Part shown: piece after piece, positions 46,063-64,000 of the stretch
How the letters are laid out: every line of letters begins with the position of its first letter
How positions within the stretch are numbered: the first letter of the stretch is position 1
Virus record (IMG/VR): IMGVR_UViG_3300048910_000141
Direction: 5' to 3' (one strand)
DNA length: 64,000 nt
Source of the DNA: a virus
Translations under genes and position numbers: made by a program
The notes under the pieces: model-generated
The model's database searches: none
Told to the model about the DNA's origin: nothing
The model's input: the letters and a program-made list of their open reading frames with translations, nothing else

Positions 46063-46093
46063 ACTCATCACCCATCCAAGGGAGATTCGCAAA

Positions 46094-47769: not shown

Positions 47770-47770
47770 G

Positions 47771-48052: not shown

Positions 48053-48053
48053 C

Positions 48054-48275: not shown

Positions 48276-48276
48276 C

Positions 48277-48507: not shown

Positions 48508-48518
48508 CCAGTCCCGCC

Positions 48519-49144: not shown

Positions 49145-49344
49145 TGACCGCGCGCCAGTTCGTCTTCCTACTCCAGTGGGGTTGGTTGATGTTGCTCGCT
49201 GGTCTCTTCTCGCTTCTCTGCATGCCGATGTTCGCCATGCACGCGTGGATGGAGCGCAAGCCTCATCCGTGGCGCTGGGCGTGGGGTGTGGTGTCGAGCG
49301 GCGGCTTTCGGGATTTCGCGAAGGATTGGAGAAAGTACGGATGA
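49144..49344 (+). CDS. small membrane protein
   Basis: FVFLLQWGWLMLLAGLFSLLCMPMFAM. Confidence 0.5.
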   Translation: MTARQFVFLLQWGWLMLLAGLFSLLCMPMFAMHAWMERKPHPWRWAWGVVSSGGFRDFAKDWRKYG

Positions 49345-49853: not shown

Positions 49854-50017
49854 TGGACGACATCGACGTGGATCAGTTCGTGGCCGAAGAGATCGAGAGC
49901 CTCCGCCGCTTCGCTGCGATGTGGAAATCCGAATCGGCGAACGACCCGGAAATCTGGCCGGCGAACATGCGGCGCGGCGAATGGGATGAGCAGTTCCGCT
50001 CGTACGAGGGCGCGTGA
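49853..50017 (+). CDS. hypothetical protein (54 aa)
   Basis: MDDIDVDQFVAEEIESLRRF...; ATGA overlaps. Confidence 0.45.
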   Translation: MDDIDVDQFVAEEIESLRRFAAMWKSESANDPEIWPANMRRGEWDEQFRSYEGA

Positions 50018-50325
50018 TGACGGACCCTATCGGCAACTGCGAATGCGGCGCACCGCTGGCTGAGACCGGTCCGCCGATCTGGGAAACCTACTGCACGGAC
50101 GAGAAGTGCAAGGTCGCTTGGAACAAACTGGTCAAGGCTATCCGCGAGGCGCCGTTGCCGCCGCTTACCGGACGATATGCCGCCGAGATCAAGCAGATCG
50201 CTGCCGAGCTTCGCCATACCTACGACCATCTGGTGAATGGCACCACCAGTGATCCCGCCGAATTGGCGAGAGGCCTGCTCGGCCCACAGATCGTGCGGCT
50301 TGAGAAGCTGACAGGAGGGAAGTGA
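50017..50325 (+). CDS. hypothetical protein
   Basis: MTDPIGNCECGAPL... Confidence 0.55.
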   Translation: MTDPIGNCECGAPLAETGPPIWETYCTDEKCKVAWNKLVKAIREAPLPPLTGRYAAEIKQIAAELRHTYDHLVNGTTSDPAELARGLLGPQIVRLEKLTGGK

Positions 50326-50957
50326 TGAAGAACAACGTCTATTACGAAGCCGTCGCAGGTGAGGTTCTCGCCTTCTGCTTCGACTACCGCGAGCGCCTGA
50401 TCGCAAAGCGCGACGTGTTTCAGGAGTACGCCAAGTCCAAGGGCGCGAAGGGCTGGGTTGGTTCATGGGGTGATTTCTTCGGCCTGCTCTATGAGCGCGA
50501 TGCCGATCGCCCTAAAGGCCTTGTTGCCGCCAAGCGCAAGACCAACGACGGCTACACTGTCTGGCGTCCCCATGGGAAGTCGCCCGAGGGTAAGGAACTT
50601 CGCCGCGAGTTCGACGACCTTGGTCGAGAGCCACGTGGTCACGAGTTCTGCAAGCGGTTCAACATCCCGGAGTCCTTGAGCTACCGGAAGTCCGAGGAGT
50701 GCTACGGCACCATGGCGCTCAACGCCATCTTCCCCGACTCGGCCTTCATCGGCTGGACCGGAGAAGGTGACGATCTTCGCTTCTGGGTCGTGCTACCGGA
50801 CGTGGATGGTGCCATCGCCGACAAGACTGCCGAGGGTTACACCTGCGATCCTGCTTCGTGGACTCTGCCGGCCGGGCTAATTCTCTCCAGCCGAGCCCGC
50901 TACGATCTCGCCGTGGCGCAGGCCAAGGTGCGGGAAGAGGAGCTTGAGGCGGCGTGA
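50325..50957 (+). CDS. hypothetical protein
   Basis: ATG after AGGAGGGA. Confidence 0.6.
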   Translation: MKNNVYYEAVAGEVLAFCFDYRERLIAKRDVFQEYAKSKGAKGWVGSWGDFFGLLYERDADRPKGLVAAKRKTNDGYTVWRPHGKSPEGKELRREFDDLGREPRGHEFCKRFNIPESLSYRKSEECYGTMALNAIFPDSAFIGWTGEGDDLRFWVVLPDVDGAIADKTAEGYTCDPASWTLPAGLILSSRARYDLAVAQAKVREEELEAA

Positions 50958-51172
50958 TCACCGACGATCAACTGGTGGCGCTGCTCATCGACGCCCACAC
51001 CACCCGGCACGATCCCGAGTTCGGATCGAGCTATCACCAGACCGACCGCTTCGATGTCGAGATCGAGAACGGGATCATCAAGGTCGGCACCGGCGGAGGT
51101 GACTTCTACGCGGTGACGCTCGATCTCGAACAGTTCCGTGCCGGCGTCGAAGCCCTGATCCGGAGCGATTGA
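50954..51172 (+). CDS. hypothetical protein
   Basis: GTGA overlap start. Confidence 0.5.
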   Translation: MITDDQLVALLIDAHTTRHDPEFGSSYHQTDRFDVEIENGIIKVGTGGGDFYAVTLDLEQFRAGVEALIRSD

Positions 51173-51366
51173 TGCTCACCTACCTAGACCGGGCTTTCTG
51201 CACCGCCAAGTGTCTCACCCTCGATTGTCCACGCAACGTGACGCCAGAGGTCGAAGCGGCTGCGGAGAAATGGTGGGGAGGCCCGGATTTCCCGATGAGG
51301 CTCATGCCGCTCAATGAGCAGTGTGATGGCTACCAGCCAGCGCCGGAGGGCATCTGCAATGCCTAA
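51172..51366 (+). CDS. hypothetical protein
   Basis: ATGA overlap start. Confidence 0.5.
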   Translation: MLTYLDRAFCTAKCLTLDCPRNVTPEVEAAAEKWWGGPDFPMRLMPLNEQCDGYQPAPEGICNA

Positions 51367-51730
51367 GGCCGGACGATTGCAGTGCAAGGACATCCCGGAT
51401 CAGCCGATCCTCCAGTTCCTACACGACCAGCCGGTAGTTGGCACCAGCGTCAGCAAGGACGGGTTACCGTTCAGGCGTTGGACCAACTGGTTCTGGGACC
51501 CGAAAGGATCATATGAGCCAAATCCTGAATACGAATACTTGCCTGACAACTCCGTTGCTCGTGCAATGCCGGAAGGCGTCTGTGACAAGCTGCGGATCGC
51601 CAAGATGGCGATGATGATCCGGCGCGGCATTGTGGATGGATGTCCGTGCGGGTGCCGAGGCGACTTTGTGATCACCAAGAAGGGCGAGGACCTGCTTGCC
51701 AAAATGAAAGAGGCCGAATGCCAGACGTAA
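51359..51730 (+). CDS. hypothetical protein
   Basis: MPKAGRLQCKDIPDQPILQF... Confidence 0.55.
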   Translation: MPKAGRLQCKDIPDQPILQFLHDQPVVGTSVSKDGLPFRRWTNWFWDPKGSYEPNPEYEYLPDNSVARAMPEGVCDKLRIAKMAMMIRRGIVDGCPCGCRGDFVITKKGEDLLAKMKEAECQT

Positions 51731-52254
51731 CGTTCACAGATGACGTGCAGGTGGTGGGCCTCCCGTTCAAACCCGGTGATTGGGCCGTCGATCCGTGCGG
51801 CGAACGTGTAGCGAAGGTCGTTCGCGTCTACCGGTGCGGCGAAGATGTGCTGCTCGATCTCTCGATCTACAGCCATAAGGGCGAACGCCTCGGCCGGACC
51901 TCTCCGGCGATGGGTGGTCCAACGAAGACCGAGCCCGCGTGTGATGCAAAGAATTGGGAGAGGATCGCCGAGCCTGACTTTCCGATCACCATAAAGTGGG
52001 TGCCCAGCAGCGACGGTAAGGTGTCGGCGCGATATTGGGCAGGGGATCGTCTGCCGCCAGCCAACTACGTCCCTCGGCCGAAGAAACCGAAGGCGAAGCC
52101 GGCGACGCGTCGCTCCGATTTCCCAGCGACGCTGGACAAGGAAGAGTACCAGCATCTGGTGGAGCTTTTCGCCGGTGCCAACGATCCGATCGCCATCTCG
52201 ATCGTGACCAAGGCGCAGGGGATGCTCGACTGGTACACGAAGATCGGACTCTAG
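51718..52254 (+). CDS. hypothetical protein
   Basis: MPDVTFTDDVQVVGLPF... Confidence 0.55.
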   Translation: MPDVTFTDDVQVVGLPFKPGDWAVDPCGERVAKVVRVYRCGEDVLLDLSIYSHKGERLGRTSPAMGGPTKTEPACDAKNWERIAEPDFPITIKWVPSSDGKVSARYWAGDRLPPANYVPRPKKPKAKPATRRSDFPATLDKEEYQHLVELFAGANDPIAISIVTKAQGMLDWYTKIGL

Positions 52255-52291
52255 CCAGACAAACTTTTTTCGTCCTTATGTCGATTTTGGG

Positions 52292-52320
52292 TTGACCTAG
52301 ACCATCCGCCTGTGTATAAG
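52292..52320 (+). promoter_or_regulatory. promoter of tRNA cluster 2
   Basis: TTGACC-N17-TATAAG, spacer ends CCTGTG. Confidence 0.6.
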
Positions 52321-52460
52321 CCCACCTCTCGACGCACTTCCGCGTCAACAGGATTATTGAGACCACCATGTTCTTCGGGACCAAACGAGATCGCCGAGAA
52401 GGCGAACGAGGTTTTAGCCTCTAACCCGGTGGTGTGTCCTGCTGCCGGTGTCGTTTTGAC

Positions 52461-52537
52461 GGATCGGTAGCTCAATAGCGTAGAGCGGTGGGTTCTTACC
52501 CCGCAGGTTGTGGGTTCGACCCCCACCCGATCCTCCA
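52461..52537 (+). tRNA. tRNA-Lys (CTT)
   Basis: Acceptor GGATCGG/CCGATCC, loop TTCTTAC, CCA. Confidence 0.8.
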
Positions 52538-52560
52538 AAACGACATCGGTAAAATTGACA

Positions 52561-52588
52561 CCCCATCGGCGACCCCGGTGGGGTTTTT
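52561..52588 (+). terminator. hairpin + T5 after tRNA-Lys(CTT)
   Basis: CCCCATCGG-CGACC-CCGGTGGGG-TTTTT. Confidence 0.5.
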
Positions 52589-52610
52589 CGCGTCCGCATT
52601 CTCGGCTCAT

Positions 52611-52685
52611 GGATCGGTAACTCAATGGGCAGAGTGGCGGACTTTTAATCCGAGGGTGTGGGTTCGAGGCCCACCCGATCTACCA
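52611..52685 (+). tRNA. tRNA-Lys (TTT)
   Basis: Acceptor GGATCGG/CCGATCT, loop CTTTTAA, CCA. Confidence 0.75.
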
Positions 52686-52701
52686 AATTTCACGGGCCTG
52701 A

Positions 52702-52774
52702 GCGGTTGTAGTCTCAGCGGTAGAGCGTCGGCTTGCCAAGTCGAAGGTCGCGGGTTCGATCCCCGCCTGCCGCT
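52702..52774 (+). tRNA. tRNA-Gly (GCC), no encoded CCA
   Basis: Loop TTGCCAA, T73, one acceptor mismatch. Confidence 0.7.
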
Positions 52775-52890
52775 CAAGCCCGTGATCACAAGTTTCCAGC
52801 GGGGTCCGCGCCAGTCCAAGACCTTCATGGGAAAGCCGATCGACCATAGGACCAGCGCAGTTGGTCGATCGTGAAATGAGATGTGTTGAT

Positions 52891-52965
52891 GCGGCCGTAG
52901 CCAAGCGGTCAAGGCAGGAGGCTTCCACCCTCCCAGCGCGGGTTCGATCCCCGCCGGCCGCTCCA
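52891..52965 (+). tRNA. tRNA-Gly (TCC)
   Basis: Acceptor GCGGCCG/CGGCCGC, loop CTTCCAC, CCA. Confidence 0.8.
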
Positions 52966-52976
52966 TCACCTCTCAC

Positions 52977-53051
52977 GGACACGTAGCTCAGTGGTAGAGT
53001 CTCGCACTGTCGATGCGAGTGTCGCGGGTTCGATCCCCGTCGTGTCCGCCA
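52977..53051 (+). tRNA. tRNA-Asp (GTC)
   Basis: Acceptor GGACACG/CGTGTCC, loop CTGTCGA, G73, CCA. Confidence 0.8.
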
Positions 53052-53057
53052 CTTCAC

Positions 53058-53133
53058 GGCCCGTTCGTCTAGCTGGACAGGACGACCGCCTCTCACGCGG
53101 TAAGCAGGGGTTCGATCCCCCTACGGGCTACCA
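53058..53133 (+). tRNA. tRNA-Glu (CTC)
   Basis: Glu-type D arm GTCTAGCTGGACAGGAC, loop CTCTCAC, CCA. Confidence 0.8.
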
Positions 53134-53154
53134 GTACCCACATGCTTTCAGCAT

Positions 53155-53228
53155 GGCCCCATAGACTAAGGGTAGGTCGCCAGTTTTTCACGCTGGAAGT
53201 CGGAGTTCAATTCTCCGTGGGGCTACCA
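53155..53228 (+). tRNA. tRNA-Glu (TTC)
   Basis: Acceptor GGCCCCA/TGGGGCT, loop TTTTCAC, CCA. Confidence 0.75.
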
Positions 53229-53270
53229 ATTTGACGGACACCGCGCTGGTCGCGATCCGTCCACGAGTAC

Positions 53271-53346
53271 GCCGCTATAGCTCAACAGGATAGAGCGCGG
53301 GATTACGAATCCCAAGGTCGAGGTTCGAGTCCTCGTAGCGGCTCCA
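53271..53346 (+). tRNA. tRNA-Arg (ACG)
   Basis: Acceptor GCCGCTA/TAGCGGC, loop TTACGAA, CCA. Confidence 0.8.
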
Positions 53347-53354
53347 GCCTCTTC

Positions 53355-53429
53355 GCCGAGGTAGCTCAGTGGTAGAGCGCCGGCTTGAAATCCCGGAAGT
53401 CGCAGGTTCAACTCCTGCTCTCGGCACCA
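53355..53429 (+). tRNA. tRNA-Phe (GAA)
   Basis: Loop TTGAAAT, C31:C39 mismatch, A73, CCA. Confidence 0.75.
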
Positions 53430-53469
53430 TCTCCAAATAGGGAAAATAACACTGCGTCAAAAATAGTTG

Positions 53470-53498
53470 TTGACACTACCACTCGACCTGTGTATAAG
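53470..53498 (+). promoter_or_regulatory. promoter of tRNA cluster 3
   Basis: TTGACA-N17-TATAAG, same CCTGTG-TATAAG-CC context as 52292. Confidence 0.6.
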
Positions 53499-53621
53499 CC
53501 GCTCCATGTTCACACAGACCCTCTTGAGCCTAACCGGCACGACGCTTTGGCATTATTGCCAACAGCATCTGAGTTCATCCCTCTAAGGGGAGTGGTCTGA
53601 CGCCCGCTCCCCTCTCCATAC

Positions 53622-53709
53622 GGAGGGTTGGCAGAGTGGGTTATTGCGGCGGTCTCGAAAACCGCTGAACCGAAAGGTTCCGTGGGTTCAAATCCCACAC
53701 CCTCCTCCA
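53622..53709 (+). tRNA. tRNA-Ser (CGA), long variable arm
   Basis: Acceptor GGAGGGT/ACCCTCC, loop CTCGAAA, variable hairpin GAACCGAAAGGTTC, CCA. Confidence 0.75.
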
Positions 53710-53718
53710 GATTTTCAG

Positions 53719-53758
53719 AGCGTCAGCAGCCTACGGGCCGCTGGCGCTTTTTCGTTTT
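53719..53758 (+). terminator. rho-independent terminator after tRNA-Ser(CGA)
   Basis: 13-bp stem AGCGTCAGCAGCC/GGCCGCTGGCGCT + TTTTTCGTTTT. Confidence 0.65.
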
Positions 53759-53848
53759 GGGTCGTCTTCCCCTCGCCGGACTGTAACCCCGGTGCCATCG
53801 AACCGAGGGGCTGTGTGGCGGGAGGTTCGAGTCCTCGACGACCCACCA
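53759..53848 (+). tRNA. atypical tRNA-like gene with Tyr (GTA) anticodon hairpin and no canonical D arm
   Basis: Perfect acceptor GGGTCGT/ACGACCC, T loop TTCGAGT, A73-CCA, hairpin CCGGA-CTGTAAC-CCCGG; only 10 nt between acceptor and anticodon arm. Confidence 0.45.
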
Positions 53849-53891
53849 TTCTATTCCAGCAGGAGTACGATCAAGAGTTCACGAGTTGCAC

Positions 53892-53979
53892 GCACTGGTG
53901 GCGGAACTGGATATACGCAGCAAGCTCAGACCTTGCCGCCCTTTGAGGATTGTGGGTTCGAGTCCCACCCGGTGTACCA
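53892..53979 (+). tRNA. tRNA-Leu (CAG)
   Basis: Type II, acceptor GCACTGG/CCGGTGT, loop CTCAGAC, CCA. Confidence 0.75.
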
Positions 53980-53990
53980 GCAACTCGAAC

Positions 53991-54075
53991 GCGGATGTGG
54001 TGAAATAGGTAAACGCAGCGGGTCGAGAGCCCGCCGGCTTCGGCCTTGTGGGTTCAAGTCCCACCTTCCGCACCA
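53991..54075 (+). tRNA. tRNA-Leu (GAG) with C33
   Basis: Type II, loop TCGAGAG, variable hairpin GGCTTCGGCC, CCA. Confidence 0.65.
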
Positions 54076-54089
54076 GTTACCTCGTGATT

Positions 54090-54163
54090 GCCGGCGTAGC
54101 TCAATGGTAGAGCTACGGCGTCGTAACCCGTAGACCTGAGTTCGATTCTCAGCGCCGGCTCCA
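54090..54163 (+). tRNA. tRNA-Thr (CGT)
   Basis: Acceptor GCCGGCG/CGCCGGC, loop GTCGTAA, C31:C39 mismatch, CCA. Confidence 0.75.
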
Positions 54164-54178
54164 CGAGTTGATCAGTGT

Positions 54179-54276
54179 CCATGGGCGTGGTGTGGCCTAA
54201 CGCAATACAGTGCGCGGCCGGATTGTGACTCCGGTGCTAGAGGGTGCAGGTCCCTCAGGTCACCCCACGCCCATGG
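54179..54276 (+). other. 98-nt structured element with a His-type (GTG) anticodon hairpin, closed by a 12-bp stem; not a canonical tRNA
   Basis: CCATGGGCGTGG ... CCACGCCCATGG; internal CCGGA-TTGTGAC-TCCGG and GAGGG-TGCAGGT-CCCTC hairpins; no GG D loop or TTCGA T loop. Confidence 0.35.
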
Positions 54277-54281
54277 ATAGT

Positions 54282-54355
54282 TGCCCCTTCGGCTAATGGT
54301 AAGCCTTCTGACTCTGAATCAGACAATCGAGGTTCGATTCCTCGCGGGGCATCCA
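54282..54355 (+). tRNA. tRNA-Gln (CTG)
   Basis: U1:A72 start, loop CTCTGAA, CCA. Confidence 0.75.
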
Positions 54356-54410
54356 GATTAGGGAGACGACGATATGGACGATACTCTCGATCGACAACCG
54401 AACGGCTTAA

Positions 54411-54484
54411 TGCCCGTTCGGCTAATGGTAAGTCGCTGCACTTTGAATGCGGAGACCTTGGTTCGATCCCAAGACGGGCATCCA
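54411..54484 (+). tRNA. tRNA-Gln (TTG)
   Basis: Acceptor TGCCCGT/ACGGGCA, loop CTTTGAA, CCA. Confidence 0.8.
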
Positions 54485-54486
54485 GA

Positions 54487-54813
54487 TCAGAGCGTCGTGT
54501 ATCCGTTATCGATGCACATGCTCATGATGCCGTAACGCAGTGTGGTGTTGTCCGCCGGGCTGGTGACATAGGCCTGATCGGCCCGAACGATGTGGCCAGC
54601 GGCGTTGCGGTAAATCGCTACCTTGAAGGTGCGGCCGTTCGCCCGTCCGCACACGACAACGGCGTCGGACTTGACCGGATCGGTTGCGATCTGCGGACGG
54701 TTGGGCAGGAAGCTGGCGATGGCGTTAGAGATCACAACCTTCTCGGTAGGCAGCAAGGGGCGCGCCTCGGCCGAGGGTGTAGCGACAAGAGCCGCGATGA
54801 GGATTAAGGACAT
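54487..54813 (-). CDS. small secreted protein embedded between tRNA genes
   Basis: Signal peptide MSLILIAALVATPSAEA; only minus-strand gene in the tRNA region. Confidence 0.5.
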   Translation of the reverse strand: MSLILIAALVATPSAEARPLLPTEKVVISNAIASFLPNRPQIATDPVKSDAVVVCGRANGRTFKVAIYRNAAGHIVRADQAYVTSPADNTTLRYGIMSMCIDNGYTTL

Positions 54814-54892
54814 GGGGGTTCTCCTATCTGGTGGAATTTCTGCCGGACCATAGGATGGACCGATAAAGGAGACAACAAGATTCAGGGTTAAC

Positions 54893-54979
54893 GGAAGGTT
54901 GGCCGAGCGGTAAGGCACCCGCTTGCTAGGCGGGCGAGACCTCAGGGTTGCGTGGGTTCGATCCCCACACCTTCCTCCA
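54893..54979 (+). tRNA. tRNA-Ser (GCT)
   Basis: Type II, acceptor GGAAGGT/ACCTTCC, loop TTGCTAG, CCA. Confidence 0.75.
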
Positions 54980-54986
54980 CCCTGTT

Positions 54987-55035
54987 TGCGTCATATATGG
55001 CGCACTAACCGGCTTTATGCGTCATATATGGCGCA
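54987..55035. promoter_or_regulatory. two copies of an 18-bp imperfect palindrome upstream of tRNA-Cys
   Basis: TGCGTCATATATGGCGCA at 54987-55004 and 55018-55035. Confidence 0.4.
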
Positions 55036-55038
55036 AAC

Positions 55039-55112
55039 GGCGCGATGGCCGAGTGGTAAGGCTCCGGATTGCAACCCCGGCATCGCCGGTTCAATTCCGG
55101 CTCGCGTCTCCA
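55039..55112 (+). tRNA. tRNA-Cys (GCA)
   Basis: Loop TTGCAAC, U73, A31:C39 mismatch, CCA. Confidence 0.75.
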
Positions 55113-55119
55113 GTTTCAT

Positions 55120-55194
55120 ATCGGTGTAGCTCAGTGGTAGAGCGGCGGCTTCCAATCCCGCGCGTCCGAGGTTCGATTCCTTGCACCGGTGCCA
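55120..55194 (+). tRNA. tRNA-Trp (CCA)
   Basis: Acceptor ATCGGTG/CACCGGT, loop TTCCAAT, G73, C31:C39 mismatch, CCA. Confidence 0.75.
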
Positions 55195-58011: not shown

Positions 58012-58292
58012 GCTTCCCCAAGTTCCCGCATCCAAAAGACCCCGACGACGTGGCGGACTATGCCATCGATTGGACAGCACGACTCGACGCCGGTGATTCC
58101 CTTGCGGACTCTCTCTTCGAGGTGGTGTCGGGTACCATTTTGCTGGGCGCTCAATCGATCGACGGCAACAAGGCCACCGTCTGGGTCAACGGTGGCGAAG
58201 ACGGTGAAACGGCCACCATCCTCAACCGCGTGACGACCACCGGTGGGCGGCAATACGACCAGACGTTCGCGCTAAAAATTAAGACGCAGTGA
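58008..58292 (+). CDS. hypothetical protein (fibre-associated)
   Basis: ATGA coupling to 56401-58011. Confidence 0.5.
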   Translation: MSFPKFPHPKDPDDVADYAIDWTARLDAGDSLADSLFEVVSGTILLGAQSIDGNKATVWVNGGEDGETATILNRVTTTGGRQYDQTFALKIKTQ

Positions 58293-58301
58293 TATTCTTA
58301 G

Positions 58302-58330
58302 TTGACAGTGATGCGAATCACGTCTAGTAA
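58302..58330 (+). promoter_or_regulatory. promoter of the tmRNA / permuted-tRNA / intron-like RNA unit
   Basis: TTGACA-N17-TAGTAA. Confidence 0.55.
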
Positions 58331-58336
58331 GACTCA

Positions 58337-58680
58337 ACACCGAGGGCAATGCTTCCGCTGCGTTCTTGGTTAGCGCCGTTCAGGTGGGTCACTGGACCCT
58401 TAAAGGCATGACCATCCATCACATCTGTGATGGTCCGCCGCCTGAGTGGAGCGACAAGTGATTACCGATCACTGGCGATCGGGATAGATGGTAACGGGCG
58501 CCCGCTTTCTCCCCTTGGGCCGGCGCACGGTGTTTCTAGGGCTTCGAGCCGTCTATCTCGGTCGCCAGTGATGTTCACTTGCGATGCGGCAGGCCTTGCC
58601 GACCGTGGAGGTCGGTTGGTCAACACTAGGCCGGCGAGGCAGGGAGTAGTGTCCCGGCAACGAGCTTTGGTCTGCCCCAT
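58337..58680 (+). ncRNA. unassigned highly structured leader RNA
   Basis: About 25-bp long-range helix GATCACTGGCGATCGGGATAGATGG (58467-) with CCGTCTATCTCGGTCGCCAGTGATG (58549-); TCGCCAGTGAT recurs near 58678. Confidence 0.35.
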
Positions 58681-58762
58681 CGCCAGTGATGGCGAGATGA
58701 TCGTAATTCGGACGATCGAAGTTTTGGCTCGGACGCGGGGGCGGTTCCCGCCGGTTCCACCA
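58681..58762 (+). ncRNA. ssrA: tmRNA acceptor piece (3' tRNA-like part of a permuted two-piece tmRNA)
   Basis: Ends GGACGCGGG-GGCGGTT-CCCGC-CGGTTCC-A-CCA; CGGTTCC pairs 7/7 with GGGGCCG at 58853, including G3:U70; 5' boundary approximate. Confidence 0.7.
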
Positions 58763-58852
58763 CGAGCCCCGATATTACTGCCACTAGGGGCGACCTACCG
58801 CTCCGAAGAGGCGCGGAGTTATCGGCCGCGCTCTGTGTTCGGGGTTGATGAT

Positions 58853-59078
58853 GGGGCCGAAGTAGGATTCGACGGGCAAGGCGGAGGTTAGGACGCGATC
58901 TAGCATGACCGACTACGCTTCGGCGAGACAGGTCACCGTTTGTAAATGCGAACGACAACACTCCGGTGGTTGTCGCCCGCGACGAGGTTCGCCTCGCCGC
59001 GTAAGCGATAACTCTCAGCCTCCGGACTGAGAAAAGGGGCTCGGGGCCAGCCTTGCAACAGAATGGCCCCACGAGATT
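58853..59078 (+). ncRNA. ssrA: tmRNA coding piece; tag peptide ANDNTPVVVARDEVRLAA
   Basis: 5' GGGGCCGAAGTAGGATTCGACGGG (classic tmRNA 5' end); resume codon GCG at 58948, TAA at 59002-59004; downstream hairpins; 3' boundary approximate. Confidence 0.8.
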
Positions 59079-59155
59079 TGAGGTAGCTGGAGGTCGCCGG
59101 TTCGAGTCCGGTCATCCCCTGATCCGGGATGTAGCTCAGATGGTAGAGCGCCAGC
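59079..59155 (+). ncRNA. circularly permuted tRNA-like unit 1 (3' half, 4-nt linker, 5' half)
   Basis: 59086-59120 GCTGG-AGGTC-GCCGG-TTCGAGT-CCGGT-CATCCCC-T; 59125-59155 CGGGATG-TA-GCTC-AGATGGTA-GAGC-G-CCAGC; acceptor strands pair 6/7, anticodon stem 5/5. Confidence 0.45.
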
Positions 59156-59233
59156 GTAGGGGAGACACCGGTTCGACTCCGGTCCGGCTGTTGATCAGCA
59201 GCCGTTAGCTTAGAGGTAAAGCGCCTCGATTTT
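59156..59233 (+). ncRNA. circularly permuted tRNA-like unit 2 (Lys-UUU-like 5' half ending at nt 36)
   Basis: 59158-59191 AGGGG-AGAC-ACCGG-TTCGACT-CCGGT-CCGGCTG-T; linker TGATCAG; 59199-59233 CAGCCGT-TA-GCTT-AGAGGTA-AAGC-G-CCTCG-ATTTT; acceptor 6/7, anticodon stem 4/5. Confidence 0.45.
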
Positions 59234-59533
59234 GGGACGTGGTGAAACGATACATCCACATCTCCTTGAGCCGGCGAAAGCCTGACTGCCGGGAAAGTAC
59301 GGTGAAGAGCAGTGCGGATGGAGGGCACTTGATCTTCGGATCAAGTCCGGGCAACAGAAACCCTCCACTGGTTTCGGGCTTTCAGCCCAGACGAGATGGG
59401 GTGGCAAGACAGCGCCGGGTGCGTCCGGCGTGGCACGCACGCTAAGGCTGATGCTGATGTGTCTTGGGACCATCCCACCTATTTGCCGGGAGCAGGTTTG
59501 TGTCTCCCAATACAAAGTGATCCCGGCGGGTTA
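59234..59533 (+). ncRNA. group-I-intron-like structured RNA following the unit 2 5' half
   Basis: Possible P1 TTTT/GAAA with U-G at the junction; GAAA and TTCG tetraloop hairpins; GGCACGCACGCTAAGGCTGATGCTGATG resembles the remembered Azoarcus tRNA-Ile intron 3' end; no 3' exon downstream. Confidence 0.4.
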
Positions 59534-59572
59534 GGCCCGGTCGTTTTTCGGAACGACCGGGCCTTTCCTTTT
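59534..59572 (+). terminator. rho-independent terminator closing the RNA-only unit
   Basis: GGCCCGGTCGTT-TTTCGG-AACGACCGGGCC + TTTCCTTTT. Confidence 0.75.
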
Positions 59573-59578
59573 GCGAAA

Positions 59579-59620
59579 GTGTTACTTTCGCTTGACATCT
59601 GGTGTTAGTTTAGCTTAACA
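59579..59620 (+). promoter_or_regulatory. plus-strand copy of the promoter cassette (upstream of the HslV-like and primase genes)
   Basis: GTGTTACTTTCGC-TTGACA-tctggtGTTAGTTTagc-TTAACA. Confidence 0.6.
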
Positions 59621-59648
59621 GTCTGAGACAACAGACACAGGGCCGTTC

Positions 59649-60089
59649 ATGACCACGATCGCGTACCGTAGTGGCACCCTCGCTGCTGACTCTCAGATCG
59701 CTTACAGTAACTACCTGAACGGGCAACGCCCCAAGATCACCCAGTGCGGTCGCTTCCACGTTGCTCTCGCCGGAAAGGCTTGGCTGCGCCGACCGCTTGA
59801 AGAATGGTTAGCCGCTGGCGCCGACGAAGCCAATGTTCCCGTCGAATTGATGGAGAACCAAGCTGAGTTCTCCTGTCTCATCGTCGATGACGACGGCGTT
59901 ATGCTGACTTTCGATCGCGGGTATCTCCTACCTGTCGACGCTCCTTACGCCGCGATCGGCAGCGGCATGTTCTTCGCGATGGGCGCCATGGCTCATGGCG
60001 CCTCGGCTGAGGAAGCCGTCGCTGCGGCCATGGCCCATGACAAGAACACCGGCGGCCCGATCACCGTCGTCCGTTTTCCTCTTCACTGA
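59649..60089 (+). CDS. HslV/proteasome-beta-like Ntn peptidase
   Basis: N-terminal MTTIAYR (Thr nucleophile after Met), AADSQ, AIGSG, TGGPI. Confidence 0.6.
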   Translation: MTTIAYRSGTLAADSQIAYSNYLNGQRPKITQCGRFHVALAGKAWLRRPLEEWLAAGADEANVPVELMENQAEFSCLIVDDDGVMLTFDRGYLLPVDAPYAAIGSGMFFAMGAMAHGASAEEAVAAAMAHDKNTGGPITVVRFPLH

Positions 60090-60096
60090 GTTCCCG

Positions 60097-63000
60097 ATGC
60101 CCGCTTACACGCAACTCATAAACGACCTGTTCGCTCAGACGAATGGCGCGGTCACCGTTACCGACGCAAACGGCGAATCATTCACTTCGCATGACCTCAT
60201 CAAGGTCGGCGCGTGGGCCTCGAAAGCGGAAGACCCATGGATCGATCTCGCCACCGACGAAGGAGAGGCGATTGGTCTGTTCGTCGCGGGCAATCCGCAG
60301 GTCGTGAGTCCGCAGCCGTCGTTCGATGTCGATGGTGGTATGGTCTATATGCTCAAAGGCGCTCCAGTTGGTGGACAGAAGCAGGGCTTCCATATGTGCC
60401 CGCTCGATGTGTTTCTACACAAGGGCGAAGTGGACCTCGCCGGCCTCAATACCTTCGAACCGGAAGACCTCGACATCTGCACGCCGGGTTCGGATCGCGC
60501 GATCACCCTGATGACCGGACGGCGCCGCGACGAAGGGCAGGGACGTTGGAAGCCGGTGTCTTCCACGTTCGGGCAGTTCACCGACGTGCTGCGCGCCCAC
60601 AAGGAAGGCGAGAAGGACGGCTCCTGCTATCTTCAAGGTGAGTCGGCCGATGGCGCTCGCAAGTCGGCGGCGCAGATCGCCAACTACATCCTCGGCGTCG
60701 ACCTCGACTCAGGTGCTCCCCTTCACGACGTGATCGCGACGATTTCCAAACATGGTCTGGAGGCGGTGATCTACACCACCCACAGTCACTTGAAGGACAC
60801 GTCGGTCATCAAGCGCGACCACTTCATGAAGGAAATGGGCACCTCCGAGGCCGACGAGGACCTGATCCGCCAATACCTGATCGAGTGGAAGGGCGTGCTG
60901 CCCCACATCCTCGAAGAGGTCGAAATCCTCGACGACGCCAAGCACACCAGCGAGGGCATCGTCATCCTTGTCCGCCACCGGCCGATGCCGAAGTTCCGTG
61001 CGGTGTTCCCGCTCAGCGAAGGCTTCGTGTTCGCCAAGCGCGGCGGCAGCCAGAAGGACGCGATCCTTGAATGGAAAGAGCGCTACGCCGGGTTCTGCAC
61101 CGACATGGGCTTCTTCTACGACGAGAAGTGCGTTGATCCGGCGCGCCTCTTCTACATGCCTCGCCACCCCGCCGGTGATACCAAGTTCGGCTCGTGGCTG
61201 ATCGTTGGCGAACCGCTCGATCTCGACAAGTTCAACCGCGTCAAGATCAATCGCAAGCGCCGTGGGAAGCCGAGCGGGCCTGCCAACGCGTTCACTGACG
61301 CGGCGGGCGGCGCTGCTGTCGATGACGATGATGATGAAGCCGATCGCTATGTGACCGAGGACGGTTACAATCTGCGCGGCTGGGCGTCCAAACACGCCAA
61401 GCGGTTCGAGGTCCAGCGGATGCTCGAAGACGTGATCGGCGACGACATCATCCGTGAGGATCGCGGCTCGAAACCGGGCGTACATGTCGAGTGTCCGTTC
61501 GAGGCTGAGCATTCGAGCTTCGGTGGCGCCGGTTGCTTTGTGGTCAATGCCAGCGACAATGCCGACGAGGGTTATGACGGTGGCTACACCTTCAACTGCA
61601 CTCACAACGCGTGCGCCGGCCGCGATCGGCTCGATTTCCTCGTGGAGCTTTGCAATCAGGGACAGATCACCAAGGCCGATCTGACCAACAAGGAATATCT
61701 CTATGAGATCGAAGGCGACGAAGACGACGCTCGCGATGAGCCAGAGCCCGTTGGCGTTCGCAAGCGCGACGCCGCCGTTTCAAATGAGCGTGCCGGAAAA
61801 CCCTCCTCGGGCGTTTCCCAAGCTGACGAACGACGCGGAAATACTGCGCGCGATCGTGAAGGCGTTCAGGCGGACATCGACGAAGACCTAGCGTCTGACG
61901 AAGAGGATGTCGTTCTCAAGGCGTTCAACCGCCGCTACGCTGTAATTCGCACGTCCGGCGGGGTCCGTATCCTCGTGGAGCCTCGCACGGCTGACGACGA
62001 TGTGGCGTTCGAATCACAGAACGACGTGAGTCTGTACGAAAAGAACCGCGTGATCTGGACTGGCGGTAGCCGCAAAGGCGAGAGCGCCAAGAAACTCGAA
62101 GCCTTCAAGGTCTGGCTGGAGTGGGAACACCGCCGCACTTACAGCCGCGTCGTATTCGCGCCGGGGCAGTCGGTGCCACGTGACACCTACAACCTATTCC
62201 GGGGCTGGCCGTTCGAGCCGGTGGCGACGACGTGGACCGAGACATTGGAGAACTCCGACGCTCCGGTCCCCGGTGATTGGTCGATGCTACGTGGTCACAT
62301 CTTCGCCAACATCTGTGAGTCCGACGACGAACTGTTCAATTGGTTCATGACGTGGTTGGCAATGCTGTTCCAGAAGCCCAACGCCAAGCCGGGCTCGACC
62401 GTGGTAATCACCGGCGAGAAGGGCACCGGCAAGTCGACCGTGTTCGACTATGTGAATCAGCTTCTCGGCCGCTGTGGCATCACCGTCTCTCAGCGTAAGC
62501 AGATCGTCGGTCAGTTCAATGGACACTTGGCGACCACGTTGCTCATGGTCTGCGAAGAAGCCTTCTGGGCCGCCGATCCTCAGGCCGAAGGCGTCCTCAA
62601 GGACATGATCACCAACAAATCGGTGCTGATCGAAAAGAAAGGCTACGATCCGATCCAGTCGCAGAACTACACGCGACTCGCGCTGATCTCGAACAATGAG
62701 TGGGTGGTGCCGGCGTCGCTCAAGGACGAACGTCGCTTCTTCGTCCTGCGGTGTAACTCAGCCCGGCGCGGTGATCTCCGCTTCTTCGAGGACATGCGGG
62801 AGCAAATGGAGAAGCTTGGCGGGCTCGAAGCCTTCCTGTACGATCTTCTCCACTGGGAGCCCATCAATGGGACCTTCTCCTCGTTGTTCAATCCCCCAGT
62901 GACCTCGCATCTCCAGCAGCAGCAGATCGAGTCGCTCACCGGCGTCCAGAAGTTCATGCTCGAACTGGTCAAGGCCGGAATGTACGAGACGAACGACGAC

Positions 63001-63318
63001 AACATCACGCCGATCGAACTGAACGAGGACAAAGAGACTCGCATTTACGCGGTCGACATGCGGGCCGCCGTGCAGGACTATGTGAAATTCCGCTTCTCGT
63101 CCGACAAGGCGAAAACGTCCTTCGACGACATCGCCGTGGTCGTTACCGACTGGTTTGGGGCGCGAGAAGTTAGCATGGCTGTCGAAGGCTCAACGAATCG
63201 TAAACGAACCTTCGTGTTTCCTCCGCTCGATGACGTGCGCGCTAAGCTCAAGGAATCCAAGGGGCTCGATATCGAGGCGATGACCTTGGAGACGGTCAAG
63301 GCCATGAAAACGCGGTAA
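60097..63318 (+). CDS. primase-polymerase (AEP-like) fused to D5/P4-type SF3 helicase
   Basis: AEP-like GVDLD and YTTHSH, zinc motif CPFEAEH...CTHNAC, Walker A GEKGTGKST, Walker B LLMVCEEA. Confidence 0.75.
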   Translation: MPAYTQLINDLFAQTNGAVTVTDANGESFTSHDLIKVGAWASKAEDPWIDLATDEGEAIGLFVAGNPQVVSPQPSFDVDGGMVYMLKGAPVGGQKQGFHMCPLDVFLHKGEVDLAGLNTFEPEDLDICTPGSDRAITLMTGRRRDEGQGRWKPVSSTFGQFTDVLRAHKEGEKDGSCYLQGESADGARKSAAQIANYILGVDLDSGAPLHDVIATISKHGLEAVIYTTHSHLKDTSVIKRDHFMKEMGTSEADEDLIRQYLIEWKGVLPHILEEVEILDDAKHTSEGIVILVRHRPMPKFRAVFPLSEGFVFAKRGGSQKDAILEWKERYAGFCTDMGFFYDEKCVDPARLFYMPRHPAGDTKFGSWLIVGEPLDLDKFNRVKINRKRRGKPSGPANAFTDAAGGAAVDDDDDEADRYVTEDGYNLRGWASKHAKRFEVQRMLEDVIGDDIIREDRGSKPGVHVECPFEAEHSSFGGAGCFVVNASDNADEGYDGGYTFNCTHNACAGRDRLDFLVELCNQGQITKADLTNKEYLYEIEGDEDDARDEPEPVGVRKRDAAVSNERAGKPSSGVSQADERRGNTARDREGVQADIDEDLASDEEDVVLKAFNRRYAVIRTSGGVRILVEPRTADDDVAFESQNDVSLYEKNRVIWTGGSRKGESAKKLEAFKVWLEWEHRRTYSRVVFAPGQSVPRDTYNLFRGWPFEPVATTWTETLENSDAPVPGDWSMLRGHIFANICESDDELFNWFMTWLAMLFQKPNAKPGSTVVITGEKGTGKSTVFDYVNQLLGRCGITVSQRKQIVGQFNGHLATTLLMVCEEAFWAADPQAEGVLKDMITNKSVLIEKKGYDPIQSQNYTRLALISNNEWVVPASLKDERRFFVLRCNSARRGDLRFFEDMREQMEKLGGLEAFLYDLLHWEPINGTFSSLFNPPVTSHLQQQQIESLTGVQKFMLELVKAGMYETNDDNITPIELNEDKETRIYAVDMRAAVQDYVKFRFSSDKAKTSFDDIAVVVTDWFGAREVSMAVEGSTNRKRTFVFPPLDDVRAKLKESKGLDIEAMTLETVKAMKTR

Positions 63319-63674: not shown

Positions 63675-64000
63675 ATGCGAGTGGAACAGATCGACCGGAT
63701 CGACGGTCGCAAGGGTCTGATCAAGCTGTGGGAGCCCGCTGGCTATCCTTTCGAGGATCAGGCGATGGATCAGATTCGCCGGGTCGCGTCGATGCCGTTC
63801 ATCCACAAGCACATCGCCGTGATGCCCGACGCCCATGCCGGCATCGGTTCCACGGTGGGCACGGTGATCGCGACCAAGGGTGCGGTGATCCCGGCGGCCG
63901 TGGGCGTCGACATCGGCTGCGGCATGATGGCGATCAAGACCACGCTTCGGGCAGATCAGCTTCCCGACAACCTCGGGCAGATGCGCGCGGCGATCGAGGC
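63675..64000 (+). CDS. rtcB: RNA ligase RtcB (5' part, runs off the window)
   Basis: MPFIHKHIAVMPDAHAGIGSTVGTVIATKGAVIPAAVGVDIGCGM nearly collinear with remembered E. coli RtcB; RBS AGAAGGAA. Confidence 0.9.
   Translation, partial: MRVEQIDRIDGRKGLIKLWEPAGYPFEDQAMDQIRRVASMPFIHKHIAVMPDAHAGIGSTVGTVIATKGAVIPAAVGVDIGCGMMAIKTTLRADQLPDNLGQMRAAIE

What the first reader, a model, noticed from the sequence alone, without database searches (positions are those of the whole stretch)
59079..59233. Two tandem tRNA-like units with the 3' half encoded upstream of the 5' half
The order of tRNA parts is reversed in two adjacent units.

Unit 1:
- 59086-59120 reads as anticodon-stem 3' strand GCTGG, 5-nt variable loop, T arm GCCGG-TTCGAGT-CCGGT, acceptor 3' strand CATCCCC, then T.
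- After a 4-nt linker (GATC), 59125-59155 reads as acceptor 5' strand CGGGATG, TA, D arm GCTC-AGATGGTA-GAGC, G, anticodon-stem 5' strand CCAGC.
- The acceptor strands pair 6/7 and the anticodon-stem strands pair 5/5.

Unit 2 follows directly:
- 59158-59191 is the 3' half, TGATCAG is the linker, and 59199-59233 is the 5' half, which ends ...CCTCG-ATTTT.
- Acceptor pairing is 6/7 and anticodon-stem pairing is 4/5.

Read in the normal 5'-to-3' order, the middle segment has non-pairing acceptor strands (CGGGATG versus CCGGCTG) and no anticodon arm, so it is not an ordinary tRNA. No cognate 3' half lies downstream of either 5' half.

The tmRNA immediately upstream is also permuted, giving three consecutive permuted tRNA-like modules. 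Permuted tRNA genes are known from a red alga and a few other lineages, matured through circular intermediates. I know of none in phages or bacteria. The phage encodes RtcB 4 kb downstream, an enzyme that could seal an open anticodon loop; that link is speculation.
Basis: partly seen in the sequence, partly recalled or inferred. Interest (0 to 1): 0.9.

Follow-up and report, generated by a model that had tools for sequence, protein, structure and literature searches.

The report
Tandem YrlA-type tRNA mimics after tmRNA
Two adjacent tRNA-shaped RNA modules with a hairpin-closed acceptor stem and no anticodon loop sit right after a phage tmRNA gene; they belong to the known YrlA class of tRNA mimics rather than being permuted tRNA genes, here in an unusual double form with no Ro60 gene nearby.

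Summary
Window 59086-59155 and 59157-59228 each encode variable loop, T arm, hairpin-closed acceptor stem and D arm, closed by an anticodon-stem-like helix. ARAGORN accepts each unit as a tRNA once its halves are re-ordered, but rejects the cross combinations.

The interpretation as novel permuted tRNA genes is not supported. This layout defines the tRNA-like domain of bacterial and phage YrlA (Y RNA-like) RNAs, which the literature already describes as resembling circularly permuted tRNAs.
- Rfam YrlA matches both units, below its gathering score.
- A covariance model built only from other phage modules, several next to Ro60 genes, scores unit 1 at 78 bits and unit 2 at 47 bits.
- Across 26 modules the acceptor hairpin and closing helix covary strongly.
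- Neither unit has an anticodon loop.

What is unusual:
- The two modules are 1 nt apart, probably inside one outer stem.
- They abut the 3' end of a permuted tmRNA.
- No Ro60 or Band-7 gene was found in the window or in the flanks held for relatives.
- RtcB lies 4.4 kb downstream.

Comparable double modules occur in other viral contigs, and in Bacteroidota 40 of 45 pattern hits lie beside Band-7, 16 with RtcB in the held flanks. Verdict: a new variant of a known kind, of moderate interest.

The parts
58670..59072 (+). Permuted (two-piece, alphaproteobacterial type) tmRNA gene, given as context. Its last bases CCAC(G) overlap the 5' strand of the proposed outer stem.
   Evidence: ARAGORN tmRNA* 58670-59095 with tag ANDNTPVVVARDEVRLAA. 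Rfam RF01849 at 76.7 bits, 58680-59072, and RF04321 at 82.1 bits.
59069..59084 (+). Proposed outer-stem 5' strand (CCACGAGAUUUGAGGU). It pairs with 59223-59242 and encloses both modules.
   Evidence: With both cloverleaf cores enforced, the optimal fold closes them with this stem at -65.8 kcal/mol. Forcing unit 2's own closing helix gives -57.5 kcal/mol. Analogous long outer stems occur in L001/L005, L141, L142 and L145. There is no covariation test for the window itself.
59086..59155 (+). Unit 1, a complete YrlA-type tRNA-like module: closing helix, variable loop, T arm, hairpin-closed acceptor, D arm.
   Evidence: Rfam YrlA 38.1 bits, E 8.6e-5 over the whole window, model positions 23-85. 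Model R1, built without the window, gives 78.2 bits and E 1.6e-19 at exactly 59086-59155. Helices checked. ARAGORN accepts the re-ordered unit.
59157..59228 (+). Unit 2, a second tRNA-like module (T arm, closed acceptor, D arm). Its closing helix is probably supplied by the outer stem (GAGG 59080-83 / CCTC 59224-27).
   Evidence: Rfam YrlA 23.4 bits in the local scan only. R1 gives 47.3 bits, equal to the best dimeric-tRNA junction in the window at 47.0 bits. Helices checked. ARAGORN accepts the re-ordered unit. The D stem GCUU/AAGC is a compensated change relative to GCUC/GAGC, which is invariant in 26 modules.
59223..59242 (+). Proposed outer-stem 3' strand (GCCUCGA U UUU GGGA CGUGG).
   Evidence: Constrained fold.
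59253..59404 (+). Downstream stem-closed RNA domain. It carries GGCGAAAG (59273-80), which fits the Ro60-site motif GNCGAAN0-1G, and a second copy of the alpha-tmRNA 3' motif (59346-68). Whether it belongs to the same RNA is uncertain.
   Evidence: MFE fold z = -2.1. Motif scan. GGCGAAAG is invariant in alignment A1, although the alignment around it is doubtful.
59533..59575 (+). The only strong intrinsic terminator after the tmRNA and tRNA-like cluster. This implies one transcription unit running from the tmRNA to here.
   Evidence: 14-bp stem with a T run. No sigma-70-like promoter was found in 58200-59750.
63678..63998 (+). RtcB RNA ligase gene, N-terminal part, running off the end of the window.
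   Evidence: Pfam PF01139, E 1.4e-25. 66% identity to L005 RtcB. The gene is syntenic in every Lacusarx-like relative that retains the downstream flank, L001-L014.

Best explanation
Window 59069-59242 encodes one non-coding RNA of about 170 nt with two YrlA-class tRNA-mimic domains in tandem.

Structure:
- Each domain folds like the upper body of a tRNA: T arm, D arm, elbow, and a 6-bp acceptor helix.
- The acceptor end is sealed by a 5- or 8-nt loop, and there is no anticodon loop. The RNA therefore cannot be charged or decode as it stands.
- Unit 1 is closed by its own 5-bp helix.
- Unit 2, and the pair as a whole, are probably closed by an outer stem (inferred).

Production (inferred):
- The RNA is most likely co-transcribed with the permuted tmRNA and the downstream structured RNA up to the terminator at 59533-59575.
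- It is then released by processing. RNase III-type cleavage in the outer stem is one possibility.

Function, inferred by analogy:
- It serves as a tRNA-shaped protein-binding scaffold or decoy in RNA repair and quality control.
- It would act with the phage RtcB ligase and/or host factors (Rsr/Ro60, PNPase, tRNA-elbow-binding enzymes), within a phage region devoted to maintaining translation (26 tRNAs, tmRNA, RtcB).

The structure class is shown. Transcript ends, partners and function are inferred.
For: Match to known models:
- Rfam YrlA matches both units over the tRNA-like part of the model: 38.1 bits (E 8.6e-5 window-wide) and 23.4 bits.
- Covariance model R1 was built from 13 modules of other viral contigs and excludes the window.

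The comparison set contains genuine YrlA:
- A pattern scan of IMG/VR was truncated at 119 loci. It gave 24 hits with a closed acceptor hairpin, and the pair-count distribution was bimodal.
- Five of these have a TROVE/Ro60 gene 100-130 nt downstream on the same strand. Two more have Ro60 by tblastn.

Covariation across 26 modules:
- Acceptor hairpin: compensatory changes at 7 of 7 pairs, 95.5% of cells paired.
- Closing helix: 5 of 5 pairs, 84.6% paired.
- 0 of 500 shuffles reach the observed score, and slid controls drop to 26-43% paired.

Recurrence of the double layout:
- The syntenic relatives L001/L003/L004/L011 and L005 carry, directly after their tmRNA, a 17-25-bp outer stem. It encloses one full module plus a second T arm.
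- The acceptor hairpin differs completely in sequence and length between L001 and L005.
- L141 has two full modules 2 nt apart inside an outer stem of about 21 bp. L142/L146 and L143/L145 have a module plus a second T arm. ARAGORN finds no tRNA in those loci.
- In bacteria the same tandem pattern gave 45 hits, mostly Bacteroidota. Of these, 40 have a Band-7 gene and 16 an RtcB gene in the held flanks. The order RNA, Band-7, RtcB was confirmed in L155 and L148, with paired partial YrlA hits.

Literature:
- YrlA has the order T arm, closed acceptor, D arm. Its crystal structure is tRNA-like, it probably derives from a dimeric tRNA, and it is often encoded next to RtcB.
- A phage Ro60 with Y RNA-like RNAs binds host PNPase.
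Against: Both units score below the Rfam YrlA gathering score of 69 bits, because the Ro60-binding stem of the model is not matched.

No GNCGAAN0-1G motif lies within 59040-59243. The nearest is at 59273-80, outside the element.

No TROVE/Ro60 gene was found:
- Pfam on all large ORFs of the window found none.
- tblastn with five phage Ro60 proteins against the window and L001-L020 gave nothing better than E = 0.5.
- Among 353 GenBank phage records with Ro60, none is from Sphingobium or Erythrobacter phages.

No Band-7 gene was found.

Unit 2 cannot be separated from a dimeric-tRNA junction by model score alone (47.3 against 47.0 bits).

RtcB is 4.4 kb away with two genes in between. It is also conserved in relatives that lack the modules, such as Lacusarx, vB_EliS-L02, L008 and L009, so the link is loose.

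Unconstrained MFE folding does not recover the cloverleaf cores. The outer stem has no covariation support, because no close relative of this element was found.

There are no expression data.
Confidence: 0.8

Rival explanations
1. These are genuine circularly permuted tRNA genes. The transcript would be cut, circularised or ligated (for example by RtcB) at the anticodon end and opened at the acceptor loop. The products would be decoding or chargeable tRNAs.
For: - The halves are cognate and in permuted order.
- Acceptor helices are 6/7 paired.
- M. smegmatis YrlA, which has a 7-bp acceptor, is cut by RNase P and receives CCA.
- RtcB is present.
- No tRNA-His or tRNA-Tyr was found in the window.
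Against: - Neither unit has anticodon-loop nucleotides. The closing helix of unit 1 abuts other helices with 1-2 nt linkers.
- No bulge-helix-bulge motif is visible. Bacteria are not known to have the splicing endonuclease that permuted pre-tRNAs need.
- No CCA is encoded.
- Flanks of the closing helix are not conserved across the modules printed.
- The same module type sits next to Ro60 genes, where it is a Y RNA domain.
- Both units have short variable loops, so they cannot be bacterial tRNA-Tyr (established tRNA knowledge).
Confidence: 0.04
2. The region is inert debris of a tRNA array: three tandem tRNA genes that lost the outer halves and the middle anticodon arm by deletion. It would have no selected structure or function.
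For: - Rfam tRNA matches 59131-59184 (the D arm of unit 1 plus the T arm of unit 2) at 29.7 bits with the anticodon arm missing.
- Unit 1 is 79% identical to a real tRNA-Gly / tRNA-His junction in Virus Rctr197k.
- The literature derives YrlA from dimeric tRNAs.
- The phage has large tRNA arrays.
Against: - In the real junction the neighbouring acceptor strands do not pair (CGTCCGC against GTGTCTG). In both window units they pair at 6/7, and unit 1's closing helix pairs 5/5.
- All tertiary-contact nucleotides are intact.
- The same architecture recurs with compensatory changes in unrelated contigs and at the syntenic site in relatives.
- This origin would need three precise deletions.
Confidence: 0.06
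3. The modules are an accessory 3' domain of the tmRNA coding piece. They would act as a processing signal or an exonuclease-blocking cap that defines or protects its 3' end, and would not be an independent RNA.
For: - The element starts 0-13 nt after the tmRNA model end, and its outer stem uses the tmRNA's last bases.
- A stem-closed cassette follows the tmRNA in all Lacusarx-like relatives examined, with tRNA-like content in several.
- No promoter or terminator lies in between.
- A second copy of the tmRNA 3' motif lies downstream at 59346-68 (compared with the consensus).
Against: - Rfam and ARAGORN tmRNA models are complete without it.
- Lacusarx, vB_EliS-L02 and L009 tmRNAs have no tRNA-like module after them.
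- The same double modules occur in contigs where ARAGORN finds neither a tRNA nor a tmRNA gene.
- This reading is partly compatible with the best explanation, since it also assumes co-transcription.
Confidence: 0.1

Closest known systems
YrlA (Y RNA-like A; Rfam RF02553) of Salmonella, Mycobacterium and mycobacteriophages
   Same: - Same order of elements: variable region, T arm, hairpin-closed acceptor stem, D arm, closed by an anticodon-stem-like helix.
- Same conserved D-arm sequence, GUAGCUCAG..GGUAGAGC.
- Same tRNA tertiary nucleotides.
- Encoded by phages and often genomically linked to RtcB.
   Different: - No recognisable Ro60-binding helix or GNCGAA motif in the element.
- No Ro60 gene in 64 kb.
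- Two modules in tandem in one probable RNA.
- Fused to the 3' end of a tmRNA gene.
- Below the Rfam gathering score.
Band-7 (SPFH) / RtcB-associated tRNA-like ncRNAs of Bacteroidota (the 'b7a-tRNA' context of Burroughs and Aravind 2016, as cited in bioRxiv 10.1101/312249)
   Same: - Tandem layout: T arm, closed acceptor, D arm, short linker, second T arm.
- Partial YrlA hits overlapped by a truncated tRNA hit.
- Generally no Ro60 (1 of 45 loci).
- RtcB nearby.
   Different: - No Band-7 gene in the window or relatives.
- RtcB is 4.4 kb away rather than in the same operon.
- Phage context, next to a tmRNA.
- I could not read the original description of b7a-tRNA.
Circularly permuted tRNA genes (Cyanidioschyzon merolae and other algae, Thermofilum)
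   Same: The 3' half is encoded upstream of the 5' half. The acceptor stem is initially closed by an intervening loop, and the anticodon-side helix is formed by the transcript ends.
   Different: Those genes carry the full anticodon loop and a bulge-helix-bulge motif, and mature into decoding tRNAs through a circular intermediate. The window units have no anticodon loop and no such motif.
Two-piece (permuted) tmRNA of Alphaproteobacteria and their phages
   Same: The tRNA-like domain is encoded in permuted order, with T arm and acceptor 3' strand upstream of the acceptor 5' strand. One lies immediately upstream in the same window.
   Different: - tmRNA encodes CCA and has a G-U alanine identity pair.
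- It has a 77-nt excised spacer, no D stem, and an mRNA-like part.
- The two units have 5-8-nt loops, full D arms, no CCA and no reading frame.
Dimeric tRNA precursors (adjacent tRNA genes)
   Same: The T arm of one tRNA followed by the D arm of the next gives the same linear motif order and weak YrlA hits (25-27 bits in this window). Unit 1 is 79% identical to such a junction.
   Different: - In real junctions the two acceptor strands are not complementary.
- Each half in a real junction belongs to a complete tRNA.
- Here the strands pair with each other and no complete tRNA is present.

Membership tests
YrlA (Y RNA-like tRNA mimic) | tRNA-like domain in the order variable region, T arm, closed acceptor stem-loop, D arm, closed by an anticodon-stem-like helix | tested here: met
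   Helices verified. Rfam YrlA model positions 23-85 aligned. R1 full-length hits at 78.2 and 47.3 bits.
YrlA (Y RNA-like tRNA mimic) | Conserved tRNA tertiary nucleotides and near-invariant D and T stem sequences | tested here: met
   U8, A14, G15-C48, G18G19, T54-A58 and C56 are present in both units (sequence). Unit 1's D stem GCUC/GAGC is identical to all 26 modules. Unit 2 has a compensated U-A pair.
YrlA (Y RNA-like tRNA mimic) | Ro60-binding helix formed by the RNA ends, with GNCGAAN0-1G in the 5' strand | tested here: not met
   No motif in 59040-59243. The nearest is GGCGAAAG at 59273-80, downstream of the element. Rfam model positions 1-22 and 86-114 are unaligned.
YrlA (Y RNA-like tRNA mimic) | Encoded next to a Ro60/Rsr (TROVE) gene | tested here: not met
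   Pfam on all large ORFs found no TROVE domain. tblastn with five phage Ro60 proteins gave a best E of 0.5. The rest of the phage genome and the host were not available.
YrlA (Y RNA-like tRNA mimic) | Reaches the Rfam RF02553 gathering score (69 bits) | tested here: not met
   38.1 and 23.4 bits.
Circularly permuted tRNA gene | 3' half encoded upstream of the cognate 5' half | tested here: met
   ARAGORN calls the re-ordered units as tRNAs and rejects the cross combinations.
Circularly permuted tRNA gene | Complete anticodon loop split between the transcript ends, with a processing motif (bulge-helix-bulge) for excision and ligation | tested here: not met
   Linkers of 1-2 nt flank the closing helices, there is no 7-nt loop, and the flanks enter other helices.
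Circularly permuted tRNA gene | Mature product is a linear tRNA of about 75 nt with a CCA end, formed via a circular intermediate | not testable with these tools
   Needs RNA sequencing of infected cells.
Band-7/RtcB-associated tandem tRNA-like ncRNA | Tandem T arm, closed acceptor, D arm, short linker, T arm | tested here: met
   The pattern matching this layout retrieves 45 bacterial loci. The window has the same layout.
Band-7/RtcB-associated tandem tRNA-like ncRNA | Adjacent Band-7 (SPFH) gene followed by RtcB | tested here: not met
   No Band-7 homologue in the window or relatives at E <= 1. RtcB is present, but 4.4 kb downstream behind two unrelated genes.
tmRNA (two-piece) | The interval is covered by the tmRNA model | tested here: not met
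   The Rfam alpha_tmRNA hit ends at 59072 (model position 354 of 355). Only ARAGORN's looser end at 59095 overlaps the first 10 nt of unit 1.

The most novel reading that the evidence does not exclude
The closed-acceptor modules may be precursors rather than end products. RNase P would open the acceptor loops, as it does for M. smegmatis YrlA, and CCA would be added. The phage RtcB would seal or re-join the ends. The result would be chargeable split or re-circularised tRNA-like adaptors that work alongside the two-piece tmRNA. That would make a bacterial-virus counterpart of the algal permuted-tRNA pathway.
Probability: 0.04. Interest if true: 0.85.

Novelty: new variant of a known kind. Interest (0 to 1): 0.4.

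Why it matters
YrlA-type tRNA mimics have so far been found and interpreted through their Ro60 partner. This locus shows the tRNA-like module used without a detectable Ro60 gene. The same holds for the double modules found here in other viral contigs, and for the Band-7/RtcB loci of Bacteroidota, where only 1 of 45 loci has Ro60.

The module is duplicated in tandem and sits with other translation-maintenance genes: tRNA arrays, tmRNA and RtcB. If the module acts independently of Ro60, its function is a tractable open question. It could be a cofactor for RtcB repair or a decoy for tRNA-binding host factors. A phage with a compact, dispensable-looking locus would be a convenient system for testing this.

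In practical terms, the region should not be annotated as tRNA genes, tRNA pseudogenes or part of the tmRNA.

Tried and rejected
- Unconstrained MFE folding of 59040-59270 does not show the cloverleaf cores (z = -2.0). This is usual for tRNA-like RNAs, so it was not used as evidence either way.
- The Rfam gathering-threshold scan reports only a truncated tRNA hit in the interval. The YrlA lead appeared only at E-value thresholds.
- GenBank phages hold no homologue of the element. blastn hits were limited to tmRNA pieces and one dimeric-tRNA junction.
- No contig encodes exactly the neighbouring 1107-aa protein.
- The closest relatives are about 71% identical in protein and carry a diverged version of the element.
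- A pattern specific to unit 1 found nothing in IMG/VR. The outer stem therefore could not be tested by covariation.
- Lacusarx, vB_EliS-L02, L008, L009 and L012 have other stem-closed cassettes after their tmRNA, without full modules.
- I considered that GGCGAAAG at 59273-80 is the Ro60 site of this RNA. In L001 the aligned motif is the 3' strand of the outer stem, but in the window it pairs downstream. The homology is doubtful and I left it open.
- RNase P RNA resemblance of 59290-59370: Rfam gives 8.5 bits. Rejected.
- Group I intron or permuted intron-exon arrangement: no Rfam support. Rejected.
- attP or integration scar: this cannot explain the D-arm halves or the complementary acceptor strands. 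Rejected.
- The review PMC10870794 and the paper tried as PMC5062991 (an id recalled from memory for Burroughs and Aravind 2016) were not held. The b7a-tRNA description is therefore second-hand.

Full report
**Context.** The window comes from a large tRNA-rich phage related to Sphingobium phage Lacusarx and Erythrobacter phage vB_EliS-L02. Synteny and 66-72% protein identity in the neighbouring 1107-aa DUF5906 protein support this. ARAGORN finds 26 tRNAs on the + strand between 44.7 and 55.2 kb, and a permuted tmRNA at 58670-59095. Rfam places the alphaproteobacterial tmRNA at 58680-59072. An RtcB gene starts at about 63678 and runs off the window.

**Observation.**
- Unit 1 (59086-59155) has a 5/5 closing helix, a 5-nt variable loop, and a 5-bp T arm with the loop TTCGAGT. 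Its acceptor helix is 6/7 paired and sealed by TGATC, and it has a 4-bp D arm.
- Unit 2 (59157-59228) has the same parts. Its acceptor is 6/7 paired and sealed by TTGATCAG. Its own closing helix is weak: 2 Watson-Crick pairs, 2 G-U pairs and one mismatch.
- Both units keep the nucleotides that build the tRNA elbow and core.
- When the halves are re-ordered around a dummy anticodon loop, ARAGORN calls each unit a tRNA. It finds nothing for the two cross combinations. The halves are therefore cognate within units, as claimed.
- No other T loop lies within 59000-59700.
- A structural descriptor gave no hit in shuffled sequence.

**Identity.** Scanned at E-value thresholds, Rfam matches both units to YrlA (RF02553). 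The scores are 38.1 bits (E 8.6e-5 over the whole window) and 23.4 bits, over model positions 23-85. That region is the tRNA-like domain only.

Chen et al. 2014 describe YrlA as a Ro60-binding stem plus a domain ordered variable region, T arm, closed acceptor stem-loop, D arm. They report likely Y RNAs near Ro60 in more than 250 bacterial and phage species, and they warn that dimeric tRNAs give false hits. Wang et al. 2018 solved the structure. [quoted passage not shown] They propose an origin from dimeric tRNAs and note frequent linkage to RtcB.

**Independent test.**
Of these, 24 have complementary acceptor strands with short loops, and the pair-count distribution is bimodal.
- Five of them have a TROVE/Ro60 gene 100-130 nt downstream on the same strand, and two more have Ro60 by tblastn. 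The set therefore contains bona fide phage YrlA RNAs.
- Unit 2's score equals that of the best dimeric-tRNA junction in the window (47.0 bits). Unit 2 therefore rests on its verified helices and context, not on score.
- Over 26 modules the acceptor hairpin has compensatory changes at all 7 pairs and the closing helix at all 5. No shuffle reaches the observed score, and slid controls collapse.
- The acceptor pairing was a selection criterion for the seeds. The closing helix was not.

**Dimeric tRNA or debris?** Unit 1 is 79% identical to a real tRNA-Gly/tRNA-His junction in Virus Rctr197k. There the adjacent acceptor strands do not pair and each half belongs to a full tRNA. In the window the strands pair with each other and no full tRNA exists. 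This fits descent from a tRNA array followed by selection for the closed form. It does not fit inert debris.

**Architecture of the pair.**
- With the cloverleaf cores enforced, the best fold closes both units with an outer stem, 59069-59084 paired with 59223-59242. It is 8 kcal/mol better than forcing unit 2's own helix.
- The same design recurs elsewhere. Directly after the tmRNA in L001/L003/L004/L011 and L005, a 17-25-bp outer stem encloses one full module plus a second T arm. The acceptor hairpin is entirely different in sequence and length between L001 and L005.
- In unrelated contigs, L141 has two full modules 2 nt apart inside an outer stem of about 21 bp. L142/L146 and L143/L145 have a module plus a second T arm. 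ARAGORN finds no tRNA in those loci.
- I therefore read the two units as one RNA of about 170 nt. The outer stem in the window itself is untested by covariation, because no close relative of this element was found.

**Partners.**
- No TROVE gene was found in the window, in the held parts of the relatives, or in Lacusarx-type GenBank genomes.
- No Band-7 gene was found.
- RtcB is conserved at the syntenic place in every Lacusarx-like relative that retains the downstream flank, L001-L014. These include relatives without modules.
- In bacterial genomes the tandem pattern gives 45 hits, mostly Bacteroidota. Forty have a Band-7 gene, 16 have RtcB and one has Ro60 in the held flanks.
- The gene order RNA, Band-7, RtcB was confirmed in two loci, and four loci show the same kind of partial YrlA hit, two successive hits in L150 and a YrlA hit overlapped by a truncated tRNA hit in L148 and L177.
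- Tandem YrlA-type modules linked to RtcB without Ro60 are therefore a natural class. The window is a phage variant of it, with a looser RtcB link.

**Mechanism.**
- Shown: two tRNA-shaped domains with sealed acceptor ends and no anticodon loop.
- Inferred: transcription together with the tmRNA up to the terminator at 59533-59575, since no promoter or terminator lies in between.
- Inferred: release by processing at the outer stem.
- Inferred: action as a tRNA-shaped scaffold or decoy in RNA repair and quality control, with RtcB and/or host Ro60, PNPase or tRNA-binding enzymes. This is by analogy with YrlA and with the phage phiLo Ro60-Yrl-PNPase complex.
- Maturation into decoding tRNAs is unlikely. 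There is no anticodon loop, no bulge-helix-bulge motif and no encoded CCA. An RNase P-opened form, as in M. smegmatis, is not excluded.

**Verdict.** The element is a new variant of a known kind: a tandem, tmRNA-adjacent, apparently Ro60-less YrlA-type tRNA mimic. My searches of the held literature found no description of this variant. That does not show it is undescribed.

Noticed in passing
window 59253-59404: A stem-closed structured domain lies downstream of the two units. Its 5' strand carries GGCGAAAG (59273-80), which fits the bacterial Ro60-site motif GNCGAAN0-1G. Inside it, 59346-59368 (GGCAACAGAAACCCTCCAC) repeats the conserved 3'-terminal motif of alpha-tmRNA, which also occurs at 59056-59072.
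   Followed up: partly
window 59405-59575; L001 9220-9420; L006 6210-6620; L008 1840-2440; L012 2150-2520: A further conserved structured RNA ends in the terminator and shares the motif CCGGGAG...GTCTGTCTCC...CCCGG across relatives. In L001, L006, L008 and L012 it has its own TTGAC-N17-TAT promoter-like site. In the window no such promoter was found.
   Followed up: no
window 59591-59620: The promoter-like motif TTGACA-N15-TAGCTTAAC lies upstream of the 146-aa gene at 59649-60089. TAGCTTAAC is invariant in the five sequences of alignment A1. The homologous gene in vB_EliS-L02 is annotated as proteasome subunit alpha/beta, but the window protein has no Pfam hit.
   Followed up: no
L001 2675-2778 (also L003, L045, L095, L119, L134; variant in L136): The closest relatives carry another full YrlA-like RNA inside their tRNA array, with an outer stem GGGGCG/CGTCCC (37.5 bits over the full Rfam model; 74.5 bits with R1). 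The window has no counterpart.
   Followed up: partly
L001 687-1133: A GOLLD-like RNA (RF02032, 122 bits, below the gathering score of 150) lies in the tRNA region of the relative. It overlaps a tRNA hit at 715-787. Nothing similar was found in the window.
   Followed up: no
L028 7680-7850 and L042 345-520 (contigs with a crAss001_48-like gene): A nested double tRNA-like structure. An outer tRNA has the acceptor AGCACTG/CAGTGCT and its own D and T arms, and its anticodon stem covaries between the two loci (TCGTC/GACGA against ACGCC/GGCGT). In place of an anticodon loop it carries a complete closed-acceptor module. The pairing was read by eye. MFE folding did not reproduce it.
   Followed up: partly
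L147-L191 (45 bacterial genome loci, mostly Bacteroidota): The tandem pattern (T arm, closed acceptor, D arm, T arm) marks loci that almost always hold a Band-7/SPFH gene (40 of 45) and often RtcB (16 of 45 in the held flanks). The gene order RNA, Band-7, RtcB was confirmed in Pedobacter (L155) and Ohtaekwangia (L148).
   Followed up: partly
L145 4486-4640 and window 59069-63318: In an unrelated viral contig, the double T-arm RNA also sits directly upstream of a DUF5906/D5-type primase-helicase gene. In the window, one small gene lies between the RNA cluster and the 1107-aa DUF5906 protein. This may be coincidence.
   Followed up: no
L013 2130-2225 and 1800-1945; L008 2190-2230; L012 2262-2290: Other Lacusarx-like relatives have different T-arm-containing elements between the tmRNA and the next gene.
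- L013 has a 22-bp stem enclosing a T arm, and a D-arm ... T-arm element with a long insert.
- L008 has a T arm followed by TCCGGGGACCA.
This intergenic region appears to be a hotspot for tRNA-like modules.
   Followed up: no
window 44720-55194: The 26 tRNAs include two identical-anticodon tRNA-Pro(cgg) genes. No tRNA-His or tRNA-Tyr is present in the window, whereas Lacusarx has tRNA-His at the syntenic place.
   Followed up: no
window 59120-59124 and 59191-59198: Both acceptor-closing loops contain TGATC (cTGATCc and tTGATCag), although the stems below them differ completely. This may be a remnant of duplication (the units are 64% identical) or a shared recognition motif.
   Followed up: no
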